DNA of 62,928 bases, the filler included, from Licmophora abbreviata (taxonomy: Eukaryota), in the NCBI GenBank assembly GCA_900291995.1. It is 8 parts of 8 records of this genome, joined end to end, with 100 filler letters (N's around TTAATTAATTAA, not from the genome) between each part and the next. Parts side by side here need not be neighbours in the genome. Positions count along the whole stretch, not along the records: positions 34,669 to 57,188 come from OLMU01002020.1; 7 more parts are not named here. One strand, given 5' to 3'. Positions 15,486-55,310 of this stretch are shown here, piece after piece (the stretch's first letter is position 1; the number at the start of each line of letters is the position of its first letter). The notes under the pieces are model-generated. The model ran no database searches. It saw nothing but the letters and a program-made list of their open reading frames with translations, and had not been told where the DNA came from. The position numbers were made by a program, and so were the translations under genes.

Positions 15486-15515
15486 ACATTGAACATAGCA
15501 CATAGGACCATAACC

Positions 15516-28803: not shown

Positions 28804-29089
28804 CAGCATGTTGACTACAAGCGCGTACACAAGTAAAAGAGGCACAGGTGATTGACACGACCATTTTTCTTAAGGACTGCGCCACGCCATAGACAACGTA
28901 GCAACACGATCTTGACATGGCAAATTCTAAGCATAGAATTGGAAAGCTGCCAAGAGGACAATATTTCTCATTCTACATCCCCACCACCGCTTTTCGTGGA
29001 ATGAGATGGACGAATGGGCAGACCGACTGAGGTTTTTCTCCTCCCCTCCGAGAGCATTTTAGGCTCACCATGCCTCCCGTGACCCAAAT

Positions 29090-35448: not shown

Positions 35449-35620
35449 CTATGGGTATTGCTTGAGTGAGAACGATGACTAGTTGTCTCTGGCATGAGTG
35501 CAGCATGTACTTATCCGAGGAGAGATTGTGATACTATTTATATCATATTTTGTAGTCTCGTGATTCATGCGCAGCATGCAAGTAAGAACAGCGTTCGTAA
35601 ATTGCCTCACGACCCCCGCT

Positions 35621-37072: not shown

Positions 37073-37650
37073 GGTGGTGCTGTTACTATGATGCTAAAAC
37101 ATGTTTGTATGAGCAAAGTTTTTCAAGATCGACGACCGGAGAGTGAAACACACGTCGCGCGAAGCGTCGATGGATAACCGTGTCGTCGGAATTCGGAATT
37201 CAAGTCAGGGAGCTTGCGTATTCGGAGAAGTGAGCGATGACTCATGTTTCCGACAATCTGACAGAACGTATTTATCCTTCGGACTTAATTTACTACATAC
37301 TCAGACATCACAAACGCGGAGTTGACAAATACGTCACCACGCACCTCTTCCAAGACACGATGGATGGTCGTCGTCACTCTTCCAAATTTGAACCGCAACA
37401 TTCTCACCAGCGGTTTGAAGTTTCAGATCGGCGTTGACGTCGCCACCGGCAAAAGAATCATCTGAGACGTTCTTACCATCAACAGCAACATAACGTAGCA
37501 CAACGCCCGAACCCCTCACTGGCAATCGAACCTTGGTTCAGTCGATCGTCAGGCAGCAGGTACCTCATCGGCTCTTTTACTTTTGAGCCTGCCTTGACCC
37601 TCAGTTCAGTCGTTCTGAATTGACCAGAATCAAATTTCAGTTTCAGCACC

Positions 37651-39221: not shown

Positions 39222-39492
39222 ATGGAAGAGGAGGGGGCTTTTCCCATGACAACGAAAGCCAGCCTTTTAGGCGCGGCACAACAGCAACTTCTTTTTGCAA
39301 TCCACATGAAATCACTTCCATACTAGTAAGAAGAATAGAGACTAACGGAAACAAAACGCGGATTCAAGAAACTACTTTTACTTCTGGTCAATTTCGACGA
39401 GCTATGTACTCTGATGGTTATTTGCTTGTGCGTCATAGAAGAACAATAGAATGGAACACGAAAGTGTTGAAAGACCGCATTGCACCACAACA

Positions 39493-40947
39493 CTAGCGGG
39501 TTGAAGAGAAAGAGTTCACAGTTCGGGTCTTGGAGCTGCCACCATAGGTATTTCCACTCGCTCGTGGGGTCGCGTCAACACAACGCTGCACTGAATGCGA
39601 GTAGAGAGCGTTCACCACGCGGTGACCGCCATACTGGCGATAGTCTTCGTGAGATGCCAGTCCAAGCTTGACGGTGCCGAGGTCTTCAATCAGCTGTGCC
39701 ACCAATGGGTCAGACTGCACCTGGGGTTCAGCACGAATGCCATTGATAGCGTTTTCAATCGTGGCGCGGGCGATATCCAACTTTCCCTCTCTGGACTGCT
39801 TGTCAGCGGCAGCAAGGTGCTCCGCCGTCTTGATGCGGAGCCACTGTACAACCAAATGCGTATCGGCCTCGGAAACCTCGCCACCGGTAGGGCGAGCAAT
39901 CGAGCACAGAGCTGGACCTTGACGTGAGGGGCATTTGAGCAGCGTATCCGAGTACGTTAGTAAAACTGCCACATGCGGCAAAGGCGAGGTACTCATCCTT
40001 GAGGATAGATTGACGTCGAAGAGAACATCGCGACTCTCTTCAGCGTAAAAATCGCCAATGGAAACGGTGCAAGAACCATCCGCGTTCATGACTTTCTTGT
40101 CATGATGTACTTGCACAATGTCCACACCCCCTTCCTTCGCTTCTGCGGGGATCGAAAGATGGAGCATCGCGCCCTGAGCGACGACAGAGAGGACTCCGCC
40201 CAGCGCATCTCCAATCGCAGTCATCACACTGGAGTCTGTCTCGACAAAGTAGTATGTGCCACCCTCCGAGCACTGCGCCATGTCTTGGAGGAGTCTCGAG
40301 TCGTGGTTGGATCCGTAACCAAAACAATGCATCGTAATGGGAGGACAGCCTTTCGACGTCGATAGCGATCCATGCAGCAATTTCTGTGTGTGCTCAATGA
40401 GCTCAGGGCGACGGCTAATGCCCATATTGGCGAGGCCGTCAGTAAGCAAGAACACTGTCCTCACCTCGCTCGGCGATTCCACCATCTGCAGAACGGGTGC
40501 CACGATTCCGACGGCCGCCGAGATATTTGTACATCCATTCGCCTCGAGTTGTTTGATCTTGGCAAGGGCATTCTTCTTATGCACTTTAGAGAGCTTCGCG
40601 AGAGGGATCTCGAGAGCAGCTTCATCGGAAAAACCAACAAGTCCAAATCGGTCGTGCGGCATGAGCTGACGGAGCAACAGCTCTAGACTGCTTTTGCAGA
40701 GGGCCAGTTTGTCGCCATGCATAGAGGAAGAGAGGTCTATCGCAACCATGATATCGACCGGCGCACGCATGTTCTCATCTACAAGTTCCCTCGCATTGAC
40801 TGTCACGCATGACTGACCCATCTTCATGCCATTGGCGACCCCGACAGTTTGGAATTTCGGACGAACCGACAAGGTCAATGCTGGGGTCTGCTGTTCCTCC
40901 GAACCAACCATGTCCCAATCTTCGTTGCCACAATTCGAAAGAACCAT
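39493..40947 (-). CDS. von Willebrand factor A domain protein
   Basis: MIDAS motif DLSSSM, GCTNIS, FLLTDGLAN, FGYGSNHD, GGTYYFV. Helical C-terminal region. Confidence 0.9.
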   Translation of the reverse strand: MVLSNCGNEDWDMVGSEEQQTPALTLSVRPKFQTVGVANGMKMGQSCVTVNARELVDENMRAPVDIMVAIDLSSSMHGDKLALCKSSLELLLRQLMPHDRFGLVGFSDEAALEIPLAKLSKVHKKNALAKIKQLEANGCTNISAAVGIVAPVLQMVESPSEVRTVFLLTDGLANMGISRRPELIEHTQKLLHGSLSTSKGCPPITMHCFGYGSNHDSRLLQDMAQCSEGGTYYFVETDSSVMTAIGDALGGVLSVVAQGAMLHLSIPAEAKEGGVDIVQVHHDKKVMNADGSCTVSIGDFYAEESRDVLFDVNLSSRMSTSPLPHVAVLLTYSDTLLKCPSRQGPALCSIARPTGGEVSEADTHLVVQWLRIKTAEHLAAADKQSREGKLDIARATIENAINGIRAEPQVQSDPLVAQLIEDLGTVKLGLASHEDYRQYGGHRVVNALYSHSVQRCVDATPRASGNTYGGSSKTRTVNSFSSTR

Positions 40948-41150
40948 TCTTGATCAACCAATGCGCTTTGTTCGTTGTAAAAAATGATCGAGAAATGAGG
41001 AATCAGTGCACATTGACACGACCGGCACCGGAACCAGAATTCATTCCCAAATTTCGAAACGTGGATCTCTCAGTACAAAGCTACGTTGAACTCTACGGGG
41101 ACACCGCGGTTTGATTTGAGTCATGACTTTCTCTACACAAACTCCAACTT

Positions 41151-42902
41151 CTAAGAAGCTCCAGTTGACTCGGGATGGTAAGGCATACCGGTATCTGAAC
41201 TGGTAAGCATACCCGTAAAGCGTAATAGCGACAGCAAGACTTGCTTGAAGGTGGACCAGAGTGCCACAGCATTGCCTATGCGTAGTGCCGGCGCCAGTTT
41301 TCTCCTCGTTTTGTCGGCTGAGAAGACAGCGTCATCGTCGATCGTCGACATGAGCCATTCGACACCTGAAGCCACAGTCGCCCGAGCAGTTGCATTCCGA
41401 GCCTCCGCTTGGAAAACGGCAGGCACGTCGAGGACGGAGGTAGGGCTTGAGGCACCACTGTTGCTGCCTCTCGCTTTTGTGGACGACGCGACCCATGACG
41501 CCAAAGCCCACGACGGTGGGGCTTTGAATATAGACACGAATTCTGCCTTTCTCAGATAAGAGGACTGTGCTCCATCTTGTTCGCGGTACCTCTCTGCAAG
41601 GAGTAACAAGGATCGTGGAGGGTACCGTCGCCTTTGGAGTTAGAGCGGAACGAAACGGGTTAGGCTCTGCTGAATTCGTAACCCTTCATCATCTCCTCCT
41701 TTGCCATATTCTACTCACAACATTGTTAGAGCGGCGTCAATCAGTTCCTGCACAGTGAGAAAATCATTCCTTGTTTGCTTCTCCATTTGCGTCCAGTCAG
41801 GTTTGACTTTCGACAGCAAATGCTGTATCGTCATGCATACCATCCCCGCGTCACATTCTGTTTCAAAAACATCGTACCGACAGCATGGATGCACAAGAAG
41901 CGCGAGGGCAACGTATCTGTAAATAGACAAAATACCAGAATATAAATGAATTTCATGATTGAAACAGGCATGTTTCGAATCTCCAGGTCTGACCTCACAC
42001 TACGTACAAGGGAAATAGAGGGTGCGACGAGAGGAATGCATCGAAGAATCGACTTGCGATTTGGCTGGATGTGTTGTGAGAAAACCACGTAATGAGCCAC
42101 GGCATGACGACACTGGAAAGTTCCACTTCACAGTACACCAAAAAATCATGCATCTCGACATCCACTGCCTGCACCAGAGGCAACAGGAACGCATCCAGTA
42201 GCCACAAGAGCTGCGAGAAGTCTTTTCGAAGTGCATCACGCAAATGGGATGAGCAGATTTTTCGTAGCGCCGCACAGGCTAGCGACGGGTCGGATAGGTT
42301 GAACAGGAAGACACCGGCTATATCATGGAGGCCCTGATAGTAATGAATCTTGCCATGTCGAGGTGTCAGGGGTCTTGACACCGTTGTTTCCAATACTGTT
42401 GATAGCTGAGCCTCTTGATCATGTGACGCGCCGCGGTCTTGGGAAACAGGCGCCGGGGGTAAAGTATCATCACCCTCTCGCAGGTACCGAAACAAGACAG
42501 AGCGTCCAGCTTCGCGACGAATCAAGTCGATCTCTTTTGCGTCCTGTATCGTGTCATTCCTTCGCTCAAAAATAGACGAGTTCATGTCATCAATCCAGTT
42601 GTCCCCGGACAGTCCCACAAGTAGCGGCCAGGATCGTTGCCTTGTCGCCGCTTAGAACACACGAGCAGAATTAGAAGAAGACAGACATGAAGGTGAGATC
42701 AGGGAACTAGACCCAAAAGGTTTCAATTGATAGACATCCATCGACCATCGCTCCATCTCAACATACCATCCAAGAGGCCGCCGGTCGTCAGAGCCAGCTC
42801 TCGTAGTGCCCACAGGTCGACCCTTCCCGACTCATGGTCCAAACAAGCTTCAATTCGTCTCCTCTTATCTTCAACTAACTTCACTGGCACCTCCGTGTTC
42901 AT
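41151..42902 (-). CDS. Rab-GAP TBC domain protein (TBC1D20/Gyp8-like); 4 exons, ~485 aa
   Basis: Exons 42902-42767, 42650-42008, 41916-41719, 41631-41151. DLWALRELA…GGLL, RQRSWPLLVG, HYYQGLHDIA, PWLITWFSH, RFFDAFLSSHPLFPLY. Confidence 0.88.
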
Positions 42903-43320
42903 CTTGTTCCCTCTGACTTCGCTACGGCTGCCTTTTACATCAAGGTGTTGTCATTGTGGTTGTCGACGAAAAATCGAAAAATCAACTTGAAATTTCGAAG
43001 ATGGCGCGCTTGCCAGTTCGACTTTTTCAGGGAGTATTCATTATCTACAAGACTGTATGCTATTTAACCAGTAGGAGATGATCAAAGATTTGAATGGTCT
43101 CTGACAGACTGGCGGACAGTACTAGTCTTGAGTATAGTTCTACATACATCGCGTAAATTCCGTACACAGTTTGCCGTTCGTAGAATCCCTATTGACTCTT
43201 ACGGGAAGGAATCCGGCGTGTGGAATGAGTGGGATCCCCGTAGAACCACTACGTGAAGGCTCACTCCCCAGGCGACTTCGTTGCTGCTGGCGCTGTCATT
43301 TGCAGTTCGAGGGTTTGATC

Positions 43321-45169
43321 ATGTCGGAAATGGATCACGATGAGATGGATGTCGAAGGTTCTGGTGGTTTCTTCGACCATGAACCGAGTAAAGCCGAAAA
43401 ACAAGCGGTGAGTTGACTTGACAACAGTAGGATTCCCTCTTGCCGCTGAAGGGGTCAGGTCGTCCAAGAGCCGTCCCTGGTACAAATCCACGTAGGGTTG
43501 TACGTTGGCGACGGGATCCTGGGATGCGAACCTGCGAAAAGTCCGGTTGTCTTCGTCTGATTGGCGGATTCCACACTCGAACGATTCCTCATTCCCGCGC
43601 TTCTGACAGTCGGGCGGGAAACGTTGTTTGAAAAAGCCTTTGGGATGGTACATACTCACACGCGCTTCTTGTGACTACAGATGAGAAAGGCGAGCAAGAT
43701 GCCTTCCGAGTGGCTCAAGCTGCTATGCAGCGAATGGGCCGACGAAAACGCGGAGATCGTTGACGGAACAGACGCGAAGTTTCTCGAGTACAAGGCCTTC
43801 CTCAAGGGCATTCTCAGCTCGCAGTTGCTCTGCCGCCTTTCCATCCCTCCCGCGAAAGAGAATTCGAGTCTGGAACCATCTCAGCCGCTCGTCGACTTTT
43901 GGGGGATTCTAGGGGTTGAGGATGAATTCGATAAAGCCTACATTGTTGCACAGGTGGAACGCTTTGCTTCCTTGTACAGTATCCGCGCTGGTCCGCTTGA
44001 CGACGTCGATGGCATGTTTACCGACAATTTGGATGCGACGACGGCGGCAGCGGCCGCTGCGGCTGGTATCACCGTCTCTCCTTCGGGAGGAATTGTGACT
44101 CTTCCGTCCTACATGGGCCTAGACTCGAGTGCTGCCGCCGCGGCAGCAGCTGCCGCTGCAGCTGGTGAGTTAGGGTCGATCCATGGATGTTACCCGATGG
44201 GTCTTGCTCTCACTATCGTCTAACTCCCTGATGTGATCTCCTTTCTACTCATTTTCAGCCGCGGCTGGCGATGTATCGCCGGGCAAGTCGCTCTCCAAGA
44301 AGCAAGTTTCGGAAGTCAGTAAGGCCCACCAGATGGCCAAGAATGCCGAACGTGCGTTGGAGAACGAGCGACGTCAGACAATGAAAAAGGAGCAGCGCCG
44401 CGTGACGCAAGAACGCAAGGACCAGAAGGCTCGCGAACGCGAGCAGATGGCCATCAAGCGGGCCGCAGAGCGTGCTGCCCGCGATGCGACACGGGAAGAG
44501 CGCCGAAGCAAGAAGGCAGAGTTGCGCGCTCAACGCGAAAAGTTTGCCGAAGAGCAGAAAGCAGCAGCAATGAAGCGTGCTGCCGAGCTGGTGGCGTCGA
44601 ACCGCGTTCCGATTGAACTGACTCGTGGCGTGGCGATCAAGGCCATGAATACTGGCGGTGCTGCGTCGGACGATCCGCCTGTCCGGAAGCGTCGTTCCGC
44701 AATTGTCGTCACGACGGCGGCTGACTTGGACCAGATTGTCGCTCACTCCAAGAATCTGTGGAAGAAGTACAATGCCATCGCCAAGGAACATAACCAGAAG
44801 GTCAATTGGATCACCGTCTCTCGCGAGCTCGGAATTCATGTTAAAGTTCGCGAGAAGTACTCTCGTATGCATGCTCGAGCTGTGCAGCGGGGCTTTGACT
44901 TCCAGAAGTTTGGGCACTACAAGATCAAGGATCACCCGGAAATTTTTGTGGAACCAACTGAACGCGAACAAAAGTCGAAAGTCCTTCCTCCTCAGGATCC
45001 GTCGACGACTGTCTTGATCGACGGCAAGGGCGACGACGACGTCGTGGCCGCTGCGGCTGCCGTGGTTGACCATTCGGTTGTTCCCACTTCGGAAGAGCAA
45101 ACGGCTGCGGCGGTACAAGCAGCAACCATGGTGGCAGACCCGACGGCGGGTCTTGTCGAAGGTGTGTGA
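43321..45169 (+). CDS. Hypothetical nuclear protein with poly-Ala, charged coiled coil and possible HTH/Myb-like domain; 3 exons, ~493 aa
   Basis: Exons 43321-43407, 43681-44164, 44259-45169 (GTGAGT donors, frame-consistent). NLS-like RKRR and VNWITVSRELG. Confidence 0.75.
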
Positions 45170-45397
45170 GTCCAGAACGACTGGATGATAGGGAGTTATC
45201 GTGATATCGTCAATCGCTTGAGTTGGGGTGAGCTCTTGGGGCGTGATGTTTATGTGTCACGAGATACGATATGGTAGAAAAAGGAAGCGTCTATAGTGAA
45301 TGATTGTGAGCGACGTGGTCTTGTCGTGTGTTCACCTGTAGCACTCTAGGGCGATAGCAAGCAGCGTGGAGACTTTAACTCCATGTGCTCAAGTGAA

Positions 45398-45832
45398 TCA
45401 CTCTGGCGGCTTTGCTTGATCTGTTTTCTGCTGTTTCCGCCTCTTCTTGCGTTGTTCCCGAAAGAAGGCTTCGAGCATAATCTTATTTTGCTGCTGAGTC
45501 TTCTCGTCGCTCACTGCCAGATGGACGCCTCCCAGCTTGCCACCAGCCCCCACTTTCTCCAACACTCCACCGTCGACCACTCGCTTGTCCCCGAGTCCCT
45601 GCACTTGCTTGACTTCTAGCTTTTCTCCCCTCTCTCCTATACTTTCATGTGATCTCGAAATAGCCCATTGCATGACACTGTATCCACCAACAACAGGAAT
45701 GCTGAAGTAGATGCATCCCATCACGGCCCGGCCCCAACGTGGCAGTGGGTACCGCCATGCGGTGTGGACATGAGTTTTGAGAGACTCGTGGCGTTCGTGG
45801 AAGGTTCGCGCCGCTGACACAAACCAGTCCAT
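45398..45832 (-). CDS. Small single-TM hypothetical protein, 144 aa
   Basis: ATG ORF with TM segment AVMGCIYFSIPVVGGYSVMQW and a basic C-terminus. Confidence 0.7.
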   Translation of the reverse strand: MDWFVSAARTFHERHESLKTHVHTAWRYPLPRWGRAVMGCIYFSIPVVGGYSVMQWAISRSHESIGERGEKLEVKQVQGLGDKRVVDGGVLEKVGAGGKLGGVHLAVSDEKTQQQNKIMLEAFFREQRKKRRKQQKTDQAKPPE

Positions 45833-46241
45833 GATCGGTGTGAGTAACAGGCGAGCAGAAAGCTATTCAACAGCTGCAATTGGCGGGACAGGGGAATGAG
45901 GTGTTGAACACTTCATCCACCATCATGGTTCGGCTCTCGCGGTCGGCGTCAGGCGTCGTCAGTCACAGCGAAAAGTGAAAAGTCGGGGATGAAGAGCTCG
46001 AAGGAATGACGAGCTCGTGAGCCTAGCGATGCAGGCAGGATGCAGGAATAATGTTCTTGTCGGTGTATCATTGAGGTGATGTAGACATGAACGACGATAG
46101 ACTATACATTGGACATGGAGACGTAATAGCGAGATACTGACAAAACTACTGCTACTTTCTTCTTCAGTCGACCGGGCTGAACGAAGAGAGTGAACCCTGA
46201 ACCACCACCAACTACTACTGCTTCCAAACAGGGGCATCCTC

Positions 46242-47234
46242 CTAGCAACACAAGCAGCCACGGCCACTACTGGAGGCTACTTCAGGAAACGTGACACCGC
46301 ATAGGCGACGGGTGTCTTTCACCGCTGGAGCAGTTCCCGTAATTGCAGCCCTCCGTGGTAGGTCGTATGAGTCCGCAGCGCTCAAATCGACCTGGTATCC
46401 CAAGTCAATCAAACTCGCAATCGTCTGAGAATAGACAGGTTAGTGAGACGGGTCGACTCGCAGTCATACCAACAATGGCAATTGCACTTACCATTCGACT
46501 CATGGGCATGTCTGTGCGTTCGGCGAGGCCTGTCATGAGCTCTTCGTCAAAGACGGCTTCACGCCAATGTCCCTCACGAGTACCCGGACCACCCGTGTTG
46601 GCAACGGGAATGCGTTTGAGTCCAGACTCGCCCAACAGAGTCGCATACTCTTTCATGGCGTTTTCTCCCGTGAACTCTGGATTGTTGGTACCGGCACCCG
46701 CCAGGAGGCCCTTTGTCTTCCATAGTGTTCCAACTCCCAGCACGTGGCCCTGCAACAACAACAAGAAAGAGGTGCGAAACGCAGAATGAGATCCTTCACT
46801 CTGAAGCTGTACATCCAGCCTATAAATTACCACACCATTTCATGAAGAATCACATCGTCCAGGGTACCGTTGCGTTGCAAAGAGGCCAGATCGGCAGTGT
46901 CAAACTCCATGATCCCCGAATAGGGTATGCCGTTGGAAGGACGCACCGCCGTCGGTCCAGCTCGTCCCAGCACAGATCCAGTTCCGTCGATACGAATTCC
47001 CGATGCTTGAATCCTCAATCCCTCAATACGAGTACCATTCGGTAGATTGACCGGAGCGATGTTGTCCGCACGAATCACGCGCCCCCAACGGGCCGCCGCC
47101 GCAGTGAAGATCTTCTTTTGTTCTTCCGAAAGACCAGAGTACTCCAACTCAATCTTGAAGTCTCCGCTACCCGACGGAGTTTCCTCCTCTTGTCCTCCTG
47201 CTCCACCGCCCATTCCGATACAAAAGTTGCCCAT
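46242..47234 (-). CDS. Leishmanolysin-related (M8-like) zinc metallopeptidase; 3 exons, 279 aa
   Basis: Exons 47234-46836, 46749-46492, 46424-46242. VLGRAGP, HEM|GHVLG (HExxH), GHWRE, ELMTG (Met-turn), TIASLIDLGY. Starts MGNFC and ends GCLCC. Confidence 0.9.
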
Positions 47235-47839
47235 TGTCAGTCAATAGTGGCGTTGTGTAGCTTTGATGAGAAGCTTACTGTGATGCGCGTAGTTTGACTC
47301 GTGGTGGGGAAGTCTTGGAAAAGAAAAGAGACGACCGTCCCGTCGACGAGATGGCGCGCCAAACTTGAGCTTAGCGCGCTCAATTCCAAGCGGTCACCAC
47401 CCCGATGTTTTGTGGCTCGGATAAATAACACATTGATCATACCAGGTATGTCATACCAGGTAGCGAGGGGGAGTGCGCCGACCAGACGTTTCGAATCGTT
47501 CGAATCGTACCCATCGCGCTGACGGGCGGCGTCTGAAAAGGGAGCCTTGCTTCTAACCTTCTCAGCACAACCCAAAACACGACGCTGAAAGCAGACAATG
47601 AATGTTACAGTACCAGGTAGAGTGATTGAACTAGCTAATACTGATAAAAGAGTAGCTATCATAGGTACCCTGCAATCGCGAGTAGTTTGAGTTGTTTAAC
47701 TCGCTCTAGCTACTACTAGTAGTTTTGGCTCTGCAATATAATATGTAGTAGGAAACCATGTAACATGAGCATGTACGCCAGAGCGCCAGTACCGGAGGAG
47801 CTGTCGGCCCTTGGCTATCTGAGGATACCACTTCCTCTG

Positions 47840-48280
47840 CTACTTAGGTGGAGGCCCAATGCGACATCCACGCCTGTGGTTGCAGCTTGCGCATGCGAGT
47901 CGAAGATTCTCAGTCTTGTTGGACCCGCCCAATCCAAGAGGCAACATATGTTCGATCGTGAGGAGTTCGAAAGCAAACGCCTTGTGGCACCAATGACAAC
48001 ATGTACCGTACTGCCTCAAGAGCGTCCGTTTCTTGCTCGCTTTCTGTTTCGAGCCCATCCTACTGACACGCTTGGATCTTTTGTTGCAGTTGTCACCATA
48101 CGGAACAAGATCAGATGGCATCAATTGCCCCATCAAATGAGCAGAGAGCGCATCAAATTTTCCACGCACTTTACCCTTCCCACTGAACTCACCTCGCATA
48201 GTACGTGGCAGGGCCAATACTCGTTTCATCCAGTTCATGACGTGTGTTCTGTCTTGTGATCTCTCTGGATTCCGGGACAT
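47840..48280 (-). CDS. HNH endonuclease (McrA-like, Zn-binding), 146 aa
   Basis: CHWC…LTIEHMLPLGLGGSNKTENLRLACASCNHRRG. Basic N-terminus, no intron. Confidence 0.85.
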   Translation of the reverse strand: MSRNPERSQDRTHVMNWMKRVLALPRTMRGEFSGKGKVRGKFDALSAHLMGQLMPSDLVPYGDNCNKRSKRVSRMGSKQKASKKRTLLRQYGTCCHWCHKAFAFELLTIEHMLPLGLGGSNKTENLRLACASCNHRRGCRIGPPPK

Positions 48281-48672
48281 GGCGATACGAGCCGGCGTGT
48301 CTAGTTAAAACCGCTTCAACAAGGCCCATCCATAACTCGCGCAAGACTACGAGCACATCCAAGTCGCCGCCGGAAGCAGCCGACCACACCTCCCCACTTC
48401 CTCCATGACACTCCCCGGGTTTTGTTTTGCTGTACCATCTGACGATGTAACGATACACACTGTAACATTACGGTACGCCAGTCAAGACCAAGTGTCAAAT
48501 TTCAAACCAACGGCGTGGCATCCGTACCGCGCTTTGCGGACGCAGCACTGACTGTCGCGCCCACGGAAAAAGTTGTCGGTGATGTAGCGCGGCGGCGGCG
48601 CGGACCATGATATCAGCAGGATGTGACACATTCGTCGGTCTTCCATTTGAGACCTTCATCACTGTCGCCACC

Positions 48673-49785
48673 ATGCTGGTAGTAGGACGCCTCCGACTCG
48701 CTTCATGTAGAAGAGTGATCATCACGGGTGTCAGGATTGCGCAAACGAATAAGAAGATTGACGTTGCAAACGCGCAACGGCGGCAGTGGACAAGCCAAAG
48801 CATAGCAAGGTCGTCCTCGCCCACCGCCACAAGCTGTCCCATCATCCTCAGTGAACGACCCTTCCAAACTGCCATCGGTGTGGTGCTGTTCTCTTCGTCA
48901 GCGATAGCTATTGCTACAATAGCAGCAACGCCCACGACCTCGACGTGTCAGTCGGGACAACGGAAGGGCGCCGTTACGAAACCACCGCGATTCGGTAGAT
49001 CTGTGCGATACCTTTCTCGGAACGCGAGTGAAACTGATGCAAGCGTCCACAAGGATGCCGAAGACAAAACTTCATCGGTCCCACAACAACCACACGAGAG
49101 TGACGACCGCGAACACTGTCCCCTCTGTCAGAAGTACAGTCAAGGTCCGTGTGGGGACCTCTTTGTCCAGTGGCTGGATTGTACGGACGCTCATCCGGGT
49201 GTGAACCCCAAGACCAAGGTCGAATTCCACTTGGAACACTGTCAGCATCTGGGGGAACCACTCGCAGAATGTTTGCGTCAGCACGAGACATACTACCAAA
49301 ATGCGAGTAGGATATCATTGCAGGAGGACGATACCGAGGTTGGTGAAGAGGAAGCTACCAATACTAGTGGGAACGAGTCCGACGACGACTCACTGTTGCG
49401 AGACGACTGGGAGGATGCCATTCAAAAGATAGAGGCGTCCAAGTCCAAGCGTCCCTTTCCTTCTGCAATCACTCCACATTCCGAACTGCGGCCCAGTACT
49501 AGTACGGGCATGGTCGCCTTTTCCTACGAACACGAGGGACGGCCCTTAATGCTAGCCTATGTCAAGGACGATGCTGCCGCAGACACTTTGCTGGCGGCTG
49601 GGTCCTATCAAGACTTGTGGGAGTGGAAGGACAATCTTGGTATTCTGCGATTGCAAGTGTCGCCCGAAACAACCACCTCTCTGTCAATGTATGCCTTGTA
49701 TGAAGCAGAACAGGAAGAGGACGAAGTCATATTTGTACACAGTGAGCGTGTACCCACGACGAGCGGGGTTGCAGCAGGACGATGA
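48673..49785 (+). CDS. GCK-domain (Cys-rich) protein, probably mitochondrial
   Basis: CPLCQKYSQGPCGDLFVQWLDC…HCQHLGEPLAECLRQHETYY. Basic leader followed by a TM segment. Confidence 0.72.
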   Translation: MLVVGRLRLASCRRVIITGVRIAQTNKKIDVANAQRRQWTSQSIARSSSPTATSCPIILSERPFQTAIGVVLFSSSAIAIATIAATPTTSTCQSGQRKGAVTKPPRFGRSVRYLSRNASETDASVHKDAEDKTSSVPQQPHESDDREHCPLCQKYSQGPCGDLFVQWLDCTDAHPGVNPKTKVEFHLEHCQHLGEPLAECLRQHETYYQNASRISLQEDDTEVGEEEATNTSGNESDDDSLLRDDWEDAIQKIEASKSKRPFPSAITPHSELRPSTSTGMVAFSYEHEGRPLMLAYVKDDAAADTLLAAGSYQDLWEWKDNLGILRLQVSPETTTSLSMYALYEAEQEEDEVIFVHSERVPTTSGVAAGR

Positions 49786-49867
49786 GACGACACAAAAACA
49801 TGGAAACTACTGAGTCTGGCATATTACTACTAGTCGTGAAAGGTCCGTCAACGTAGATAGACGGACT

Positions 49868-51990
49868 TTACTCTAGTCGACGACGTTTAGCTCGGGGATG
49901 CTCCACCTCCACTTCCTCTAACATCGTCTGCACACTGCGCTTACGATAAAGCATGTCCATGACCGCAGTCGTCAATCGTGTCGTCCAACTCATCGTGTCC
50001 TTTGCCTTTTCAGCCTGCTTGATATTGCTGAAGCGCTCCTCGACCGAAACGATGGTCGAACCTGCAAATTTCGTCTCGAGCGCTCGACGAATCAACCGTC
50101 CGTGATTGCGAGTAGTCTCCGCGTCGTATCGTTCCTTGTTGCACAGGAGGAACGTCGTGTCGTCCACCCAAATGATGGACGTCTGAATGGGATGGGGGTC
50201 GTTTGGAGAGGTCAAGCTTGCTACACTCAGTACAATGTCTCTCGTATTGACCGATGAATTGATGCCAGAAATGTGGAATGAAGAGGTCGGCGACATGTTG
50301 CTGCTCAAGGGATCCGAATCCGGATCCTCCAGATCAATCGTATAAATGGTTTGCATCAAATGGAGCTGTGAAGAAAGCAAACGAGAAAGAGGGCGTGTCA
50401 GTGAATGATTTCCAGAACATCCGATCATGTCCAGTCGAGCACAACCGCAATGCATGATCACTCACCATGTTCCTTCCGTACAGCGACTTGGCCTCTGTAT
50501 TTTCTAGCGGTTCTAGCAAGGGCGGAAGACCAACCACGTCGTCCAGTCCGGTTATCTCTTTAGAATCAGATTCATTTCCTTCACTGATTTGCCGAATCAT
50601 CCCAACGAACACGCAGCCAGTCATGAAGGCATCGTAGGAAGCTTCGTGATCTTGCTCGAATTCGTCCCCGCCTCCACTGACAAGATAGCGGGACAAAGCA
50701 TTCGAGGGGTTTTGGGTTACTAGCTTCGGGTAGAGATTGGAGAGTGTACTCCGCTCAGCTGCCATTGCCGGTCCGCAAAACTCGGTCGCGAGCGACTTGG
50801 TGTCGTACACTACGGGAAAATGGTGAGCTACCATTGCCTTCATTTGGTCGTAGGACTCCGGCAGTTTGTGCTTGTAAAAGTGCGTCATGAGAAATAACAA
50901 ATCCATGTAACCATTGTGAACGACAATAGGCACATTCCGGCGAAGCCTCTCGAGACGCGGCTTGGCATCGAGGTCCACCTGATCCGCGTTCTCCGCTAGC
51001 ACCAAGGAGTCCACCTCCCGGTATCCTCGACAAGCATTGCTGATTGCGCGAAAGACTCTCCAGAGCCCCACCTGCTTGATGAGCGCCTCCCATCCTTCCT
51101 CTCGGAGTCTGATCGCACGGATTTCCCGTTCTTCGGCATCCATCCGTAGCACCTGAAGCTGATCCTTTCCCACCTTCTCCACGACAAGCGCCGGGTACTC
51201 CAACTCAATACTCTCGTACAACGCCCGCCGCAGAAACGAATTACAAGAAGGTAGAAGAAGTGCCGATCCTTCGTCACTATGTATCGCGCTATCGCGTCTT
51301 TGATTTCGTGCTGAATCCAACCACTCGCGAACGGACGCCATAGTTCGAGCCACAAAGTTGATGTCTTCGCGCTTGGTCAGTTCTACCCTGCGTCGATGCG
51401 GATTGTGCGGCTTGATGACATTTTCTTCTGCCTCTTTGCGACGATCCTCTCTGTACTTTTCAACCAGCCCTTCAACTTTTTCCGTCGTGACATACGAAAC
51501 GCCCTGCTTGGCCCAGAGGTTGAAACTCATGTTATGTTCAGCAAGGAAGGCGACAGTAGATGGATTCATTGTCACTTCCCGCGTCAAACGACCGTCACTT
51601 GGTGGAAAGCCGTAAAAGTTATACCGCCGCACCAAGAAATCAGGACCTACATCAGAGTTTGGATCATAGTCAGGATGCCTGTGAAACAAGACGACGCCCA
51701 GTTGAACAATCGAGTAACGTTCGGGTACCGCTTTGTTGCTCTGATAGCGCTGCGACGGGGTGTGGTGCTGGGGCGGCCTCTTTTGCCTTGGAAGCTGGAT
51801 TCCAGTCATTTCTTCGTCGATCGCGACAAAGGCAGCCGTCGGGAGGTGCTGGAGCAAGTCATTGCTTTGCTGTTGGGGCGTGGGTATGACATAGCGACTT
51901 TGGTGAGAGTGATGTCAACACACAAAAGTATATTCACAAAACTGGCGACGATCGTACCTCGATAAAATTAGACTTTGTCACATTCACCAT
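49868..51990 (-). CDS. PARN: Poly(A)-specific ribonuclease (CAF1/DEDD family); 3 exons, ~644 aa
   Basis: Exons 51990-51958 (MVNVTKSNFIE), 51869-50466, 50365-49868. FVAIDEEMTGI, VHNGYMDL, YDTK, HEASYDAFMTG, R3H-like CNSFLRRALY, RRM-like WVDDT. Confidence 0.92.
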
Positions 51991-52492
51991 TTTCGATTCA
52001 ATGGAGGGTCAGGGAGACGAAAGGGATGGAGATCGGGAGCGAAGCGATCTCTTGTCGCGGCAAAGTAAGTGTGAGCCTCACATTTATTTCACATTCGCGC
52101 TCATCTCATCACTCAGCCAACAAAATCCTCTCCAAGCGCATACTCGTACGATACGATTGGCGGATGGCGAAGTCTTGAAATTTTCAGGCCTCGTACTTCG
52201 CACACCGTTCCCCCAAACATCGTGGGATGCTTCCTCGTGTGCGAGGATCCATCCAATGCTCTCAGTCGTGGGAAGCTATATTGATCAACAGCTATGAGGG
52301 TCGTGTTCTACTCACATTTTGCGAGTCGGACGAGGGAACACTCCAAAACAGAGTGGAGTATCATCTCAACCCGTCAAAGCTGTCGCGCTTCGTAAAATAA
52401 CTATCTGAATTTAGTCATACATCGAGTCGCAATCACCTTTGTGGGAAACAAGAGCGTTCTGTTGGATGGTGGCTCTTCCCGTAGAGAAGACG

Positions 52493-53830
52493 ATGAACGA
52501 CGCGCTGCCGAAGTTCGAAACGCACCTCGACCGATCGCACGCAAGCGATCATCTGTCACCCATGGTGTCGCCCCTCAGCGGTCTTTCCACAAACGACAGC
52601 AACCCGCAATCGACGACGTTATCACCATCGAGCGGTAAAGAGGAAATCGAAGCCGCAGTTGTACTCATAAGCCTCCCATCCACCAAACTGTGTCGTATGC
52701 AGGCACCCCCATTCATCCCAGACATCTTAGCCGATGTACCCCTATGCATTGCGATGGATCCAGGCAACGAAGAATCTCGACCAACAAGTCCCTTGTCACC
52801 TCGTCACAGTAGTCGAGCGGCTTCCATCCCCGCTTTCGTCGGCGCAAATGATCGGCCCACCCAAACAAACAGTAGAAACACCTCGCTGTATCTTCCTGAA
52901 GACCACGATTCGCTATCGCAACTTCATTGCTTCATGCGACGCTACTGTGTCGAGGCTTTCAGTGCCACCGAGAAAGATGTTGCGATTCCTCGCTACGGCA
53001 AGGCTCACGGAGTCAAGGTCGTCGTTGGGCAGGTGGGTATCCGCTGCCTTCACTGTCGTCATCTTTCACCACTGCTCCAACCGGAACGGTCCGTCAGCTA
53101 CCCATCGACGCTTCGAAACATTTATCATTCGATTGAAACGTGGCAAAGGCGCCATTCCCCTCGATGCATGCACATTCCAGGTTGGATCAAAAGAGAGCTG
53201 GTGGATCTGCTTCAGCTTTCCAGAACCGGGGCCGGAGGCCGCCGGCAGTACTGGGAAGACTCAGCCAGGAGGCTTGGACTCGTCGACACTCCGCATGGAA
53301 TTCGCTTCTCCTGCGATCCCGCCACGGAGATGAGAATGATGTCTGCGCAAGTAAGACCGCCACAAGTACGGGAAATCCACCCGGTCCCGTCCGTGCTGGT
53401 ACAAGAAGCCGACAAGTCACTTGTCAGTGACTTTCTGTACTTGCTCATACTTCAGATGGAGCGGTGCGTCTTTACGGAAGAGGATCGTGCCGGAGGAAGA
53501 AGTAAGGTCAAGGACTGTGCTGTAGGGTTCTCAGGAATGCAGTGTATGCACTGTCAAGGCAAGGCTGGGTATGGCCGTTACTTCCCATCATCGCTCGAGG
53601 CACTCGCACTTGCCAACTCTGATCGCAACATTTACAATCACATTCGAAAGTGTCGCAGGTGTCCGAGTTCCGTACGACAGAAGCTCGAGACCCATCATCG
53701 CGAGCACGCCGACCGTACCTCCAAGCATAAGCGAGGCTCCCGCAAGCTCTTTTTCTCGCGAGTCTGGCAGCGCATTCACGCATGCGATGAGAATGACGGG
53801 AGCGATAGTGGAAACCTAGACTATGCATAG
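52493..53830 (+). CDS. Protein with two Cys/His putative Zn-binding repeats (diatom-type)
   Basis: Repeat 1: GQVGIRCLHC…YPS…HSPRC. Repeat 2: GFSGMQCMHC…YFPS…HIRKCRRCP. Start uncertain. Confidence 0.75.
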   Translation: MNDALPKFETHLDRSHASDHLSPMVSPLSGLSTNDSNPQSTTLSPSSGKEEIEAAVVLISLPSTKLCRMQAPPFIPDILADVPLCIAMDPGNEESRPTSPLSPRHSSRAASIPAFVGANDRPTQTNSRNTSLYLPEDHDSLSQLHCFMRRYCVEAFSATEKDVAIPRYGKAHGVKVVVGQVGIRCLHCRHLSPLLQPERSVSYPSTLRNIYHSIETWQRRHSPRCMHIPGWIKRELVDLLQLSRTGAGGRRQYWEDSARRLGLVDTPHGIRFSCDPATEMRMMSAQVRPPQVREIHPVPSVLVQEADKSLVSDFLYLLILQMERCVFTEEDRAGGRSKVKDCAVGFSGMQCMHCQGKAGYGRYFPSSLEALALANSDRNIYNHIRKCRRCPSSVRQKLETHHREHADRTSKHKRGSRKLFFSRVWQRIHACDENDGSDSGNLDYA

Positions 53831-53849
53831 CAAACTGTAGCTCGCACTT

Positions 53850-54896
53850 TTACAAGTTCTTGGGCATAAATCCTGTATCTTTCGACTTGTTCTTTTTGCG
53901 TCGTTTCGCCAGAGCCTTTGCGACGGCCTTGTCGCCACCTCGTTTTCGAAGCTCTTCAAACTTGGCCTCAAGCTCGAGTCGCTTCTGTTCCCTTCTCTTC
54001 AAATAGTACACGCCACTCTTCCCAGTAGCCACATCGTCTCTTATTTTGCGTTTGACCGCCTGCTTCGCTGCTCGCTCGACCTGAGATCGCTCATAGCTGG
54101 CCTTTTCTTGCTGCAGTCGTTTCAGTTCGGCCTGATCATGCTCTAAGCTTCCAGATTCCGTCAGCCCCAATTTCCGTCGAAGTTTCTGCCCCTTTCTTCC
54201 AGCAGTCTTTCGCGCCGCGATGTGTCGCTTCAATGTGTCCATTTCTTTTTCGCGTACAGTCTGCAGAAAGGCATAATTGTGGTCAAACTGATCTTGTTGC
54301 AAGTGACCGCTCATGCTGGACAGGCGTGGATCTCGCGGTTTGTACCGATGTGCATTAATTTCGACACCAACACCCGAAGAATTGATTGACTGTGCCTTTC
54401 GATGTGCAGACCGTCGCGAGGACACTTCGGTAGGAGCATGTTTGGATTTTCGCTTTTCATCGGTGGGTATTTGCGTTTCGTCTTTTGTCTTTTGCTTGTA
54501 GGTGGCGAGGCGTTCCGATGCTACCTTGAGGGCCAGCTTCTTGCGTTCGCGGGCATCCCGACGAGCCTTGTGCGACCGACCGGCGTCACGCTGGCGTTGC
54601 CGAAGCTCCTCCAGTGGCAAGTCGTCTTGCTCCTCCTCGCGTGACTCTTCGCCGTCGCTACTATCGCTGTCATTTCGAGCCACATCGGCTACCTCGTCAC
54701 CATCGCTCGTATCCGAGCTACTGCCATCGTCAGTGTCGCTGTCACTGTCGCAACTTTCGTCCAGCGAAACACTGTCGTCAGTCGGAAGGTCCATCATGCC
54801 ATGTTCATCGCCTTCTTGTTCGGAGGGCGTCGACGAATCATCGTCTGACGCGATGTCGCGGCTTTTTCCTCGGTCTTCACCGCCGGTCGCCATCAT
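53850..54896 (-). CDS. RRP36: rRNA biogenesis protein RRP36
   Basis: Acidic N-terminus, KHAPTEVSSRR, RDPRLSSMSG, FDHNYAFL, YYLKR and a K-rich end. Confidence 0.88.
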   Translation of the reverse strand: MMATGGEDRGKSRDIASDDDSSTPSEQEGDEHGMMDLPTDDSVSLDESCDSDSDTDDGSSSDTSDGDEVADVARNDSDSSDGEESREEEQDDLPLEELRQRQRDAGRSHKARRDARERKKLALKVASERLATYKQKTKDETQIPTDEKRKSKHAPTEVSSRRSAHRKAQSINSSGVGVEINAHRYKPRDPRLSSMSGHLQQDQFDHNYAFLQTVREKEMDTLKRHIAARKTAGRKGQKLRRKLGLTESGSLEHDQAELKRLQQEKASYERSQVERAAKQAVKRKIRDDVATGKSGVYYLKRREQKRLELEAKFEELRKRGGDKAVAKALAKRRKKNKSKDTGFMPKNL

Positions 54897-55310
54897 CGTC
54901 GCTCGTCGTCTTGAATTCGAAAACTTGGAAAGCTCGAAAAGCATAAGAGCCGCAGCTCAAACGATTGGGTGGCTGCGAAGGGATGTGGCTAGGAATTTGG
55001 AACTTTGCTAAAAGTGCGCGCCCAAACTACAATTTTTGTTTCGCGGGCGTTGGGATTTATTTTTTTTATCACGTAACGTAGTAAGTAGTCCCACTTGGAG
55101 TACCACAGCGCGCGTCGTTGAATGCTACGTAATGATATTTTCTGCCTCTTTTTTTGAGTTTGTTTCTGTCCCGCCAAAAGATACACAAATCACGCAACGC
55201 TCACTCATCTGTCATTCTTTACACGCGATTGAGGAGAAGTGAACCTTCTTTGCACCTCTTGCCCACTCTTTGCCCCTCCTTTGATCCAACTAAAACATAA
55301 ACACACAAGG

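What the first reader, a model, noticed from the sequence alone, without database searches (positions are those of the whole stretch)
46242..47234. Compact bacterial-type leishmanolysin-like peptidase with introns and lipidation motifs at both ends
Seen: splicing rebuilds a 279-aa metzincin. One intron splits the HEM|GH zinc motif. The protein has no signal peptide, begins MGNFC and ends GRGCLCC. Known: eukaryotic M8 enzymes (leishmanolysin/GP63, invadolysin) are larger and Cys-rich, and GP63 is GPI-anchored on the cell surface. MGxxC fits N-myristoylation plus S-acylation, and terminal CxCC/CC fits prenylation. Inference: the short IDGxGxVLGxAGP…GIMEFD…GHWRE…DLGY form looks like bacterial homologs. 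This would be a horizontally acquired protease retargeted to the cytosolic face of a membrane.
Basis: partly seen in the sequence, partly recalled or inferred. Interest (0 to 1): 0.78.

Follow-up and report, generated by a model that had tools for sequence, protein, structure and literature searches.

The report
Lipid-tagged bacterial-type protease gene in diatom
A diatom nuclear gene with two introns encodes a small zinc protease of a mostly bacterial family, and the cysteine tags at its ends suggest that the cell pins it to the inner face of a membrane.

Summary
On the minus strand, 47234..46242, three exons joined across two GT..AG introns (86 and 67 nt) give a 279-aa protein. It starts MGNFC and ends CLCC. 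Intron 1 splits the HEM|GH zinc motif.

The protein is a compact leishmanolysin-like (M8, PF01457-type) metzincin. HExxH, the third His and the Met-turn are all intact. The catalytic core holds no Cys, and there is no signal peptide or membrane helix.

Its neighbours are ordinary eukaryotic genes, and their best named relatives are diatom proteins. Its closest relatives form a clade of 11 rows (100/95). Two of those rows carry eukaryote labels (MMETSP, Attheya). The clade sits inside a bacterial group of P-domain+M8 proteins (97/95). Transfer from bacteria is therefore well supported. It is old, and it is shared with other algae rather than private to this genome.

In 9 of the 11 clade rows the C-terminus carries a Cys cluster with Cys at -4. 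Only 3 of 296 other family rows do. This supports lipid anchoring. The N-terminal myristoylation signal is weaker, because Ile sits at position 6.

No RNA or lipidation experiment was available. I rate this a new variant of a known kind, of moderate interest.

The parts
46242..47234 (-). Whole coding region, from ATG to stop, of the 279-aa peptidase gene (three exons, two introns)
   Evidence: Splice model and translation. tblastn of the spliced product finds only this locus in the window.
46836..47234 (-). Exon 1 coding part, aa 1-133 (MGNFC ... VILHEM)
   Evidence: As a query it finds 58 M8-family proteins at E<=0.001 among 900 candidates.
46750..46835 (-). Intron 1: 86 nt, GT..AG, lies between codons, splits HEM|GH, has an in-frame TAA at its third codon
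   Evidence: The junction is unbroken in relatives. Intron GC is 0.44 against 0.557 for the CDS.
46492..46749 (-). Exon 2, aa 134-219 (GHVLGVGTLW ... PMSRM)
   Evidence: On its own it gives a weak PF01457 match (E 0.014, 14.6 bits, below the cut-off of 21).
46425..46491 (-). Intron 2: 67 nt, GTAAGT ... CTAAC ... CAG, lies between codons
   Evidence: The junction MSRM|TIASL is unbroken in relatives.
46242..46424 (-). Exon 3, aa 220-279 (TIASLIDLGY ... GRGCLCC), plus the stop TAG at 46242..46244
47220..47234 (-). N-terminal MGNFC: a candidate myristoyl-Gly2 and acyl-Cys5 signal. It is followed by a Gly-rich acidic linker, aa 6-25, that has no counterpart in relatives.
   Evidence: Homology to relatives begins at about aa 26. 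An MGx(0-3)C start occurs in only 2 of 324 family rows, the window protein and P0106.
46744..46844 (-). Zinc motif HEMGH (aa 131-135): HEM at 46844..46836 and GH at 46749..46744, with intron 1 between them
   Evidence: It aligns to HEMAH of solved leishmanolysin through the stand-in P0001.
46558..46572 (-). GHWRE (aa 193-197), holding the predicted third zinc-binding His
   Evidence: In P0001 the same His aligns with the GSH His of 1LML. This His is invariant in 66 of 66 rows of alignment A2.
46528..46542 (-). ELMTG (aa 203-207), the Met-turn
   Evidence: It aligns with ELM of 1LML. The Met is at least 90% conserved in A2.
46284..46301 (-). Conserved tail element C261-x4-P266 (CGVTFP)
   Evidence: A basic residue followed by Cys is present in 20 of 20 rows of the clade plus its bacterial sister group. 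In 18 of those 20 a Pro follows within 3-10 residues of the Cys.
46245..46256 (-). C-terminal CLCC (aa 276-279): a Cys cluster with Cys at -4, the candidate prenyl/S-acyl anchor
   Evidence: Cys at -4 occurs in 9 of 11 clade rows against 3 of 296 other rows.
47241..47243 (-). In-frame TGA 9 nt upstream of the ATG, which fixes the first possible start codon of this exon

Best explanation
This is an intact nuclear gene of a diatom. After removal of two spliceosomal introns it encodes a 279-aa zinc endopeptidase of the compact 'leishmanolysin-related' type. That type consists of the N-terminal and central parts of the GP63 fold and lacks GP63's signal peptide, propeptide, Cys-rich C-terminal domain and GPI signal.

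The gene descends from a bacterial P-domain+M8 protein that an ancestor of several diatom or algal lineages took up long ago. Since then it has lost the P-domain, gained introns and adopted the host's codon use. It has also gained short terminal extensions that look like signals for cytosolic lipidation.

The catalytic residues are intact (HEMGH, the His of GHWRE, the Met-turn ELMTG), so the product should be an active protease. It would be made on free ribosomes and stay in the cytosol. The core has no signal peptide, no membrane helix and no Cys.

It is most likely held on the cytosolic face of a membrane by S-acylation of the C-terminal CLCC cluster, possibly after CaaX-type prenylation of the Cys at -4. 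The N-terminal Gly2/Cys5 may add a second, weaker anchor. There it would cut membrane-proximal cytosolic substrates.

Shown here: the gene model, the family and fold, the intact active site, the eukaryotic setting, the phylogenetic position and the conservation of the terminal Cys motif. Inferred: the direction and age of the transfer, lipidation, membrane location, activity and substrates.
For: Gene model: junctions match uninterrupted relatives exactly, and both introns would break the frame if retained.

Family and fold:
- Seven full-length relatives (four of them clade members) pass PF01457 with 28.7-43.6 bits against a cut-off of 21, on profile positions about 180-333 of 529.
- The AlphaFold model of P0001 (64% identical to the window protein) has pLDDT 90.3. 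Foldseek gives 1LML at E 1.2e-9, the only hit at E<=0.001. VIA-align gives Z 21.5, rmsd 3.0 A over 232 residues; the next hits are MMPs at Z about 10.
- Zinc ligands and Met-turn align to 1LML.

Eukaryotic setting:
- Neighbours are PPR, CAF1, RRP36, PI-PLC and PDK genes.
- The PDK neighbour's named hits are all diatoms at 47-59% identity.
- GC3 is 0.548, within the neighbours' 0.529-0.617. The RSCU correlation is 0.61, within their 0.51-0.75.

Phylogeny:
- Careful IQ-TREE, 59 catalytic cores: a clade of 11 (window protein, 8 unnamed rows, an MMETSP transcript and Attheya sp.) at 100/95. It lies inside a 19-row group at 97/95 with P-domain+M8 proteins, including a Polyangiaceae MAG.
- The same picture appears in FastTree on 307 rows and in the quick tree.
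- The family is broadly bacterial. In the bacterial species-genome scan, 412 of 604 candidate stretches encode a relative, and the 80 kept span many phyla. The nearest large Atlas clusters are 100% Bacteria.

Lipidation:
- Cys at -4 occurs in 12 of 307 rows, and 9 of these are clade members: CLCC, CFCC, CCCC, CGCC (three rows), CFKC, CFKS and CCML. Seven of the nine follow a polybasic run.
- The bacterial sister proteins end about 10 residues after the conserved tail Cys and have no such extension.
- Cys is a usual X residue for farnesyltransferase, and Leu for GGTase-I. Cys-rich C-termini can be S-acylated, as in type II ROPs and MUB2 (PMC3927097, passages).
- The linker before CLCC (PEVASSSGRG) is small and hydrophilic, as prenylation linkers are (PMC1175975, passages).
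- All 5 Cys of the protein lie at positions 5, 261, 276, 278 and 279.
Against: - No transcript evidence. The only run that holds the locus is DNA-like, so the introns, the start codon and the last exon are predictions.
- No lipidation predictor or experiment was available.
- The 'a2' position of CLCC is Cys, whereas that position is the most strongly aliphatic one in known CaaX substrates (PMC1175975).
- Ile at position 6 breaks the recalled myristoylation pattern.
- P0106 and P0120, inside the clade, lack a terminal Cys cluster. The five nearest relatives lack the MGxxC start.
- Clade members are related, so 9 rows are fewer than 9 independent events. The motif takes three C-terminal forms (CxCC, C-F-K-C/S and CCML).
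- Compact bacterial members also lack signal peptides. Absence of a signal peptide is therefore inherited, not a sign of retargeting.
- Canonical eukaryotic M8 sequences could not be put in the tree, so the root rests on distant bacterial multi-domain forms.
- The bootstrap had not fully settled (correlation 0.980).
- The window's own spliced protein could not be scanned against Pfam. Its exons alone do not reach the cut-off.
Confidence: 0.6

Rival explanations
1. Soluble enzyme; the terminal cysteines are not lipid anchors. The protein is a cytosolic (or unconventionally exported) protease. Its C-terminal Cys cluster would instead bind metal, sense redox state, or belong to an inhibitory tail. 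MGNFC would be a chance start.
For: Cys at a2 and Ile at position 6 depart from the usual prenylation and myristoylation patterns (PROSITE pattern recalled). The tail already holds a conserved Cys of unknown role, inherited from bacteria. P0106 and P0120 lack the terminal cluster.
Against: The cluster sits at the very C-terminus with Cys at -4 in 9 of 9 rows that have it. In 7 of these 9 it follows a polybasic run, and one ends in CCML, a standard geranylgeranylation box. The extension is absent from the bacterial sister group. The one subclade without it has a canonical MGGLCS start in P0106, as if one membrane signal substitutes for the other.
Confidence: 0.27
2. The gene model is wrong at one end. 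Translation would start at Met8 (MGGGAGG...) or in an unseen upstream exon spliced into the 5' part of exon 1, or an alternative last exon would replace the CLCC end.
For: There are no RNA data. Residues 1-25 have no homologous counterpart. A second ATG at 47213..47211 also gives an MG start, and that one fits the recalled myristoylation pattern.
Against: The first ATG has A at -3 and G at +4, and it is preceded by an in-frame stop with no AG between them. P0106, from a transcript, has the same layout: MGxxC, a Gly-rich linker, then the catalytic domain. The C-terminal exon continues the homology through the conserved C-x4-P element into a Cys cluster like that of relatives whose ORFs are uninterrupted.
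Confidence: 0.1
3. It is a vertically inherited eukaryotic M8 peptidase (a GP63/invadolysin relative) that merely became short.
For: It does belong to the PF01457/M8 fold family.
Against: Solved GP63 matches the stand-in P0001 at only E 0.0013 and 18% structural identity. Bacterial proteins are 45-58% identical to the window protein. The clade is nested among bacterial P-domain+M8 proteins. Among the best 120 hits to P0001 the named ones are bacterial, apart from one MMETSP and one Attheya entry.
Confidence: 0.02
4. It is bacterial contamination or an assembly artefact rather than a diatom gene.
For: The family is overwhelmingly bacterial.
Against: The gene has two spliceosomal introns that are needed for the reading frame. 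It lies between eukaryotic genes on one contig. Its GC3 and codon use resemble its neighbours'.
Confidence: 0.01

Closest known systems
Bacterial 'leishmanolysin-related zinc metalloendopeptidase' proteins, in compact form and with an N-terminal proprotein-convertase P-domain (PF01483+PF01457). Examples are those of Leptolyngbyaceae, Kitasatospora and Euzebya, and a Polyangiaceae MAG.
   Same: They share the catalytic domain at 45-58% identity, with the same length and motifs: IDG.G..LG.AGP, GIMEFD, HEMGHVLG.GT, GHWRE, ELMTG and DLGY. They also lack a signal peptide and carry the same tail Cys.
   Different: The window gene is eukaryotic, with two introns. It has no P-domain. It has an added N-terminal MGNFC plus Gly-rich linker and an added C-terminal Cys cluster that the bacterial sister proteins lack. 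No member of this bacterial family turned up as characterised in my paper searches.
Leishmanolysin / GP63 (MEROPS M8, PDB 1LML) and invadolysin
   Same: They share the metzincin fold with the M8-specific insertion that carries the third zinc His (Z 21.5 over 232 residues for the stand-in P0001). HExxH and the Met-turn align.
   Different: GP63 has a signal peptide, an N-terminal Cys-switch propeptide, a large disulfide-rich C-terminal domain and a GPI anchor on the outer surface (recalled knowledge). Here the protein has 279 aa, no secretory signal, no Cys in the core and candidate cytosolic lipid anchors. Sequence similarity is marginal (E 0.0013).
Proteins anchored by a polybasic or Cys-rich C-terminus: CaaX-prenylated and S-acylated small GTPases, type II ROPs, MUB2, and fungal casein kinase I
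   Same: They have a flexible hydrophilic linker, then a terminal Cys cluster with Cys at -4. Relatives add a polybasic run (PMC3927097 and PMC1175975 passages).
   Different: Those are signalling proteins, not proteases. Here a2 is Cys, and no lipid has been shown. In my three paper searches that touched on this I found no description of a lipid-anchored, cytosol-facing M8 or other metzincin.

Membership tests
Peptidase M8 / Pfam PF01457 (leishmanolysin) | HExxH zinc-binding and catalytic motif | tested here: met
   HEMGH at aa 131-135, split by intron 1. It aligns with HEMAH of 1LML through P0001.
Peptidase M8 / Pfam PF01457 (leishmanolysin) | Third zinc ligand His about 60 residues downstream, within an insertion, followed by a Met-turn | tested here: met
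   His194 in GHWRE and Met205 in ELMTG. The equivalent residues of P0001 align with GSH and ELM of 1LML. The His is invariant in 66 of 66 rows of A2.
Peptidase M8 / Pfam PF01457 (leishmanolysin) | Score above Pfam's gathering threshold (21 bits) | tested here: inconclusive
   The window's exons scanned singly: exon 2 scores 14.6 bits (below the cut-off), and exons 1 and 3 find nothing. The joined protein could not be submitted. Relatives 52-64% identical to it (P0001, P0061, P0071, P0106, P0304) pass at 34-40 bits.
Peptidase M8 / Pfam PF01457 (leishmanolysin) | GP63 fold (N-terminal and central domains) | tested here: met
   Tested on the stand-in P0001, not on the window protein itself. Foldseek gives 1LML at E 1.2e-9. 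VIA-align gives Z 21.5, rmsd 3.0 A and 232 aligned residues; the next hits have Z about 10.
Canonical eukaryotic GP63/invadolysin architecture | Signal peptide, Cys-rich C-terminal domain and overall size of about 500-600 aa | tested here: not met
   The protein has 279 aa, with no hydrophobic N-terminus or membrane helix and only 5 Cys, all terminal. The Pfam match of relatives covers only profile positions about 180-333 of 529.
Bacterial compact leishmanolysin-related metalloendopeptidases | Best sequence matches and tree position lie among these proteins | tested here: met
   It is 45-58% identical to named bacterial members. The clade is nested in a bacterial P-domain+M8 group at 97/95.
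CaaX prenylation substrates | Cys exactly four residues from the C-terminus | tested here: met
   The protein ends CLCC. The feature is conserved in 9 of 11 clade rows.
CaaX prenylation substrates | Aliphatic a2 residue and an accepted X residue | tested here: inconclusive
   X = Cys is among the usual farnesyltransferase residues (PMC3927097). a2 = Cys is not aliphatic, although a2 is the most constrained position (PMC1175975). No predictor was available.
Rab-type CC/CXC geranylgeranylation | Rab GTPase fold recognised by the Rab escort protein | tested here: not met
   The protein is a metzincin, not a Rab. GGT2 is known to act only on Rab-REP complexes (PMC1175975).
N-myristoylated proteins | Gly at position 2 | tested here: met
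   The protein starts MGNFC. An N-terminal Gly is the absolute requirement (PMC3927097).
N-myristoylated proteins | Small uncharged residue at position 6 (PROSITE PS00008, recalled) | tested here: not met
   Position 6 is Ile. The relative P0106 (MGGLCS) does meet this feature. NMT specificity differs between species (PMC3927097).
Cysteine-switch metzincin zymogens | A conserved Cys in a removable segment that caps the catalytic zinc | tested here: inconclusive
   The tail Cys is present in 20 of 20 rows of the clade plus sister group, and in 111 of 208 short-tailed family rows. Its position relative to the zinc could not be examined.

The most novel reading that the evidence does not exclude
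Diatoms and related algae turned a bacterial GP63-like protease into a lipid-anchored enzyme that faces the cytosol, a deployment I did not find described for any metzincin. Its activity would be gated by the inherited C-terminal tail. The invariant Cys (C261) just ahead of the lipid anchor would cap the zinc as a C-terminal cysteine switch, and membrane insertion of the neighbouring lipidated cluster would pull the tail out. The protease would then be active only at the membrane.
Probability: 0.2. Interest if true: 0.65.

Novelty: new variant of a known kind. Interest (0 to 1): 0.45.

Why it matters
If the lipid anchoring is real, this is a clear case of how a horizontally acquired bacterial enzyme is domesticated. 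Introns are inserted, one of them inside the zinc motif. An accessory domain is dropped. Short terminal tags are added that send the enzyme to a new place, the cytosolic leaflet of a membrane. Metzincins normally act outside the cell or in the secretory pathway.

It would also point to an unknown intracellular proteolytic step in diatoms. And it would give a tractable handle on the large bacterial 'leishmanolysin-related' family, for which my paper searches found no characterised member.

If the tags are not lipidated, what remains is an ordinary ancient bacterial-to-diatom gene transfer. Many of those are already known.

Tried and rejected
- RNA evidence: no RNA holder was listed. One run of uncertain kind held 21% of the sampled words. 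Its three short contigs carry library adapters, and one runs straight through intron 1, so it behaves like DNA. It says nothing on splicing or expression.
- No whole genome is held for this window.
- Earlier findings of this scan: nothing by place, by sequence or by words.
- The metagenome scan with P0061 gave only two distant loci (38-41% identity), and I did not pursue them.
- Cluster look-up gave no organism names for the nearest relatives.
- NCBIfam gave only a sub-threshold NF038122 match, 17-21 bits against a cut-off of 80.
- Bacterial gene neighbourhoods: I scanned 37 of the 79 ORFs found in 14 of the 80 loci. No shared context emerged that would suggest a function.
- The sigma-70 promoter and terminator scan does not apply to a eukaryote and gave nothing above the shuffles.
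- The careful tree on the first 52-row set did not finish in 491 s. Only its quick version was seen, and the 59-row careful tree replaced it.
- Docking of the P0001 tail (residues 223-261) onto its catalytic domain with zinc: verdict 'no answer', score 0.01 against a mark of 0.34, and the alignment was not used. Eleven earlier hand-ins were not accepted because the queue was full.
- Canonical eukaryotic M8 sequences could not be added to the trees. No tool returned them as usable records.
- Paper searches found no description of a compact or lipidated diatom M8. One diatom paper (PMC9054022, one passage read) lists leishmanolysin among enriched secreted proteins of Nitzschia putrida without further detail. 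PMC8035641 (passages read) surveys stramenopile metalloproteases, and nothing specific on this form appeared in the passages shown. I did not open the supplements of either paper; they may list such genes.
Full report
**1. What is in the sequence**

The gene lies on the minus strand.
- An ORF starting at ATG 47234 reads MGNFC...VILHEM and then meets GTGTGGTAA.
- 86 nt further on, after TTGCAG, the frame resumes with GHVLGVGTLW...PMSRM.
- It is followed by GTAAGT. After 67 nt containing CTAAC and ending CAG, it resumes with TIASLIDLGY...GRGCLCC and the stop TAG at 46244..46242.

Both introns lie between codons. Their lengths are not multiples of three, and intron 1 carries an in-frame stop at once. 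The protein therefore depends on splicing.

The junctions are not arbitrary. Relatives with uninterrupted ORFs read straight through both: HEMGHVLGIGTLW and PMSRMTIASL. The window protein aligns to them without a gap at either site. Identity is 60-64% over 258-260 columns to the five cluster representatives P0001, P0002, P0059, P0060 and P0061, and the same range holds for six further members of two of those clusters.

An in-frame TGA lies 9 nt before the ATG with no AG between, so no upstream exon can join ahead of this start. The window holds a single copy.

**2. What kind of protein it is**

Scanned singly, the exons barely register. Exon 2 gives PF01457 at E 0.014 and 14.6 bits, below the cut-off of 21. 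I could not submit the joined protein to the remote tools.

Seven full-length relatives, four of them clade members, pass PF01457 with 28.7-43.6 bits on profile positions about 180-333 of 529. P0304 scores 39.5 bits.

Against solved structures, P0001 finds only leishmanolysin 1LML by sequence (E 0.0013). The alignment pairs HEMGH with HEMAH, the His of GHW with the third zinc ligand, and ELM with the Met-turn.

An AlphaFold model of P0001 was built on 66 sequences and has pLDDT 90.3 and pTM 0.88.
- By Foldseek it matches 1LML at E 1.2e-9, the only hit at E<=0.001.
- By VIA-align it matches at Z 21.5, rmsd 3.0 A over 232 residues. The next hits are matrix metalloproteinases at Z about 10.

The window protein keeps HEMGH (131-135), GHWRE (193-197) and ELMTG (203-207).
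- It is therefore a compact M8-like metzincin with an intact active site.
- It lacks everything that makes GP63 a surface glycoprotein: there is no hydrophobic N-terminus or membrane helix.
- It has only five Cys, at positions 5, 261, 276, 278 and 279.

**3. Where it sits**

The window is gene-dense eukaryotic nuclear DNA. It holds PPR, TPR, PI-PLC, CAF1 ribonuclease, RRP36, M20 peptidase, a VWA protein and a PDK/BCKDK kinase.

The kinase's named relatives are all diatoms: Fragilaria, Seminavis, Nitzschia, Fragilariopsis, Pseudo-nitzschia and Cyclotella, at 47-59% identity. The best hit, 73%, is unnamed. The host is therefore a diatom without a close named relative in that database.

The peptidase gene's GC3 (0.548) and codon use (RSCU correlation 0.61) fall within the range of ten neighbouring genes (0.529-0.617 and 0.51-0.75). 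Its introns are more AT-rich than its exons. Contamination is excluded.

**4. Origin**

Search results:
- With exon 1 as query, 58 proteins passed E<=0.001 among 900 candidates.
- With P0001 as query, 2692 passed among 3435 candidates.
- A profile of nine clade members found 8248 cluster representatives at E<=0.001.

Named hits are bacterial: Cyanobacteria, Actinomycetota, Acidobacteriota, Planctomycetota, Gemmatimonadota and others. The exceptions are one MMETSP transcript (P0106) and one Attheya sp. protein (P0120).

The 80 kept span many phyla.

Trees:
- FastTree on 177 rows gave a clade of 10 (window protein plus 9) at 99.
- FastTree on 307 catalytic cores, with the tails left out so the trait under study could not shape the tree, gave the clade, now 11 rows with P0304, inside a 20-row group at 97.
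- For the final tree I used the window protein, the 10 clade relatives, 15 unnamed rows and 33 of the 80 named bacterial loci, chosen to span phyla.
  - The careful IQ-TREE run (LG+C20+F+G4) gave the clade of 11 at 100/95 and the window protein with the P0001 group at 100/96.
  - The clade lay inside a 19-row group at 97/95. That group's other members are P-domain+M8 proteins, including one from a Polyangiaceae MAG.
  - The bootstrap had not fully settled (correlation 0.980).

Rooted on distant multi-domain bacterial forms, the eukaryote-containing clade is nested in bacteria.

I could not add canonical eukaryotic M8 as an outgroup. They are very distant, however: E 0.0013 for P0001 against GP63, compared with about 1e-75 for P0001 against bacterial proteins.

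The simplest reading is one old transfer from a bacterium with a P-domain+M8 gene into an ancestor of several diatom or algal lineages. Loss of the P-domain, intron gain and adoption of host codon use followed. The donor lineage is not resolved.

**5. The termini**

In the bacterial sister group the protein ends about ten residues after a conserved basic-Cys...Pro element. That element is kept in all 11 clade rows. In the window protein it reads RRLCGVTFP, with Cys261.

Nine of the 11 clade rows then continue with an extension that ends in a Cys cluster with Cys at -4:
- CLCC (window)
- CFCC
- CCCC
- CGCC (three rows)
- CCCCFKC
- CFCCFKS
- CRCCML

Seven of the nine follow a polybasic run, KKSRR or KKKR.

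Of 307 family rows with recognisable anchors, 12 have Cys at -4. Nine of these are clade members; the other three are longer proteins elsewhere in the family.

When three residues are appended (FKC, FKS) or the ending changes (CCML), a Cys still sits at -4. CCML is a standard geranylgeranylation box. Cys is a usual X residue for farnesyltransferase and Leu for GGTase-I (PMC3927097, passages).

Points against:
- The a2 position is Cys in most of these endings, whereas a2 is the most strongly aliphatic position in known substrates.
- CC/CXC prenylation is known only for Rab-REP complexes.
- A fungal casein kinase with a C-terminal Cys pair proved to be palmitoylated, not prenylated (PMC1175975, passages).

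My reading is therefore S-acylation of the cluster, possibly primed by prenylation of the -4 Cys.

The remaining two clade rows (P0106, P0120) have no terminal cluster. P0106 starts MGGLCS, a canonical myristoylation plus acylation signal, followed by a Gly-rich linker.

The window protein has both kinds of end: MGNFC with a Gly-rich acidic linker (aa 1-25, without a homologue) and CLCC. Its N-terminal signal is imperfect. Ile at position 6 breaks the recalled PROSITE pattern, although NMT specificity varies between species (PMC3927097). An MGx(0-3)C start occurs in 2 of 324 family rows.

Different membrane-type signals appear in different sub-lineages of one small clade and are absent in the bacterial sisters. 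That is the main argument that selection favoured membrane attachment on the cytosolic side.

The clade rows are related, so these are few independent events. Nothing here is experimental.

**6. Mechanism proposed**

Shown: an intact metzincin active site, no secretory signal, a Cys-free core and conserved terminal Cys motifs.

Inferred:
- The enzyme is made in the cytosol.
- It is lipidated at the C-terminus and perhaps at the N-terminus.
- It works at the cytosolic face of a membrane on unknown substrates.

The inherited tail Cys could act as a C-terminal cysteine switch. It is present in 20 of 20 rows of the clade plus sister group and in 111 of 208 short-tailed family rows. I could not test this idea.

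**7. Comparison and novelty**

It works like, and is a member of, the bacterial compact leishmanolysin-related family. It shares the M8 fold with GP63 but fails the canonical eukaryotic architecture.

My paper searches found nothing on a compact or lipid-tagged diatom M8, and no paper that uses NCBI's name for the bacterial family.

Bacterial genes in diatom genomes are commonplace. The new element is the apparent retargeting by terminal lipidation tags, together with an intron inside the zinc motif. I class it as a new variant of a known kind, with moderate interest.

Noticed in passing
window 47840..48304 (-): The next ORF upstream on the same strand (154 aa, stop to stop) carries an HNH endonuclease domain: Pfam HNH_5 at 3.6e-11, HNH at 1.7e-8, and 20 PHROG families of which 19 are annotated as HNH endonuclease or endonuclease VII. 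Its codon use fits the neighbours least well (RSCU correlation 0.31 against 0.51-0.75), although it is short. It may be a second gene of foreign origin next to the peptidase.
   Followed up: partly
window 1966..57288 (14 runs): There are seven pairs of 44-base N runs, each pair separated by 12 bases, 616 N in all. Examples are 1966-2009 with 2022-2065 and 57189-57232 with 57245-57288. They look like masked or withheld stretches, not assembly gaps of varied size.
   Followed up: no
window 47237..47695 (-): A 152-aa stop-to-stop frame lies directly upstream of the peptidase start codon, in another frame. It contains a Met followed by a hydrophobic stretch. It is probably a chance frame in the promoter or 5' UTR, but without RNA data an upstream ORF cannot be excluded.
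   Followed up: no
L058 3766..4242 and L053 3765..4253 (+): In the Ruegeria and Cohaesibacter loci the compact M8 gene is followed directly, on the same strand, by a 159-163 aa ORF with no Pfam family; in the Cohaesibacter locus the ORF overlaps the M8 stop codon. This is a possible partner, such as an inhibitor or chaperone, in these two bacteria only.
   Followed up: partly
proteins P0005, P0067, P0318, P0344 and other bacterial relatives: The bacterial compact and P-domain forms also lack an obvious signal peptide. Many end in a conserved Cys...Pro...(V)LP tail. The family appears uncharacterised, and its cellular location in bacteria is itself an open question.
   Followed up: partly
window 39493..40953 (-): A VWA-domain protein with a C-terminal Vwaint (VWA/Hedgehog intein-like) region, Pfam 1.2e-5. 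This domain pairing is uncommon, and I only noted it.
   Followed up: no
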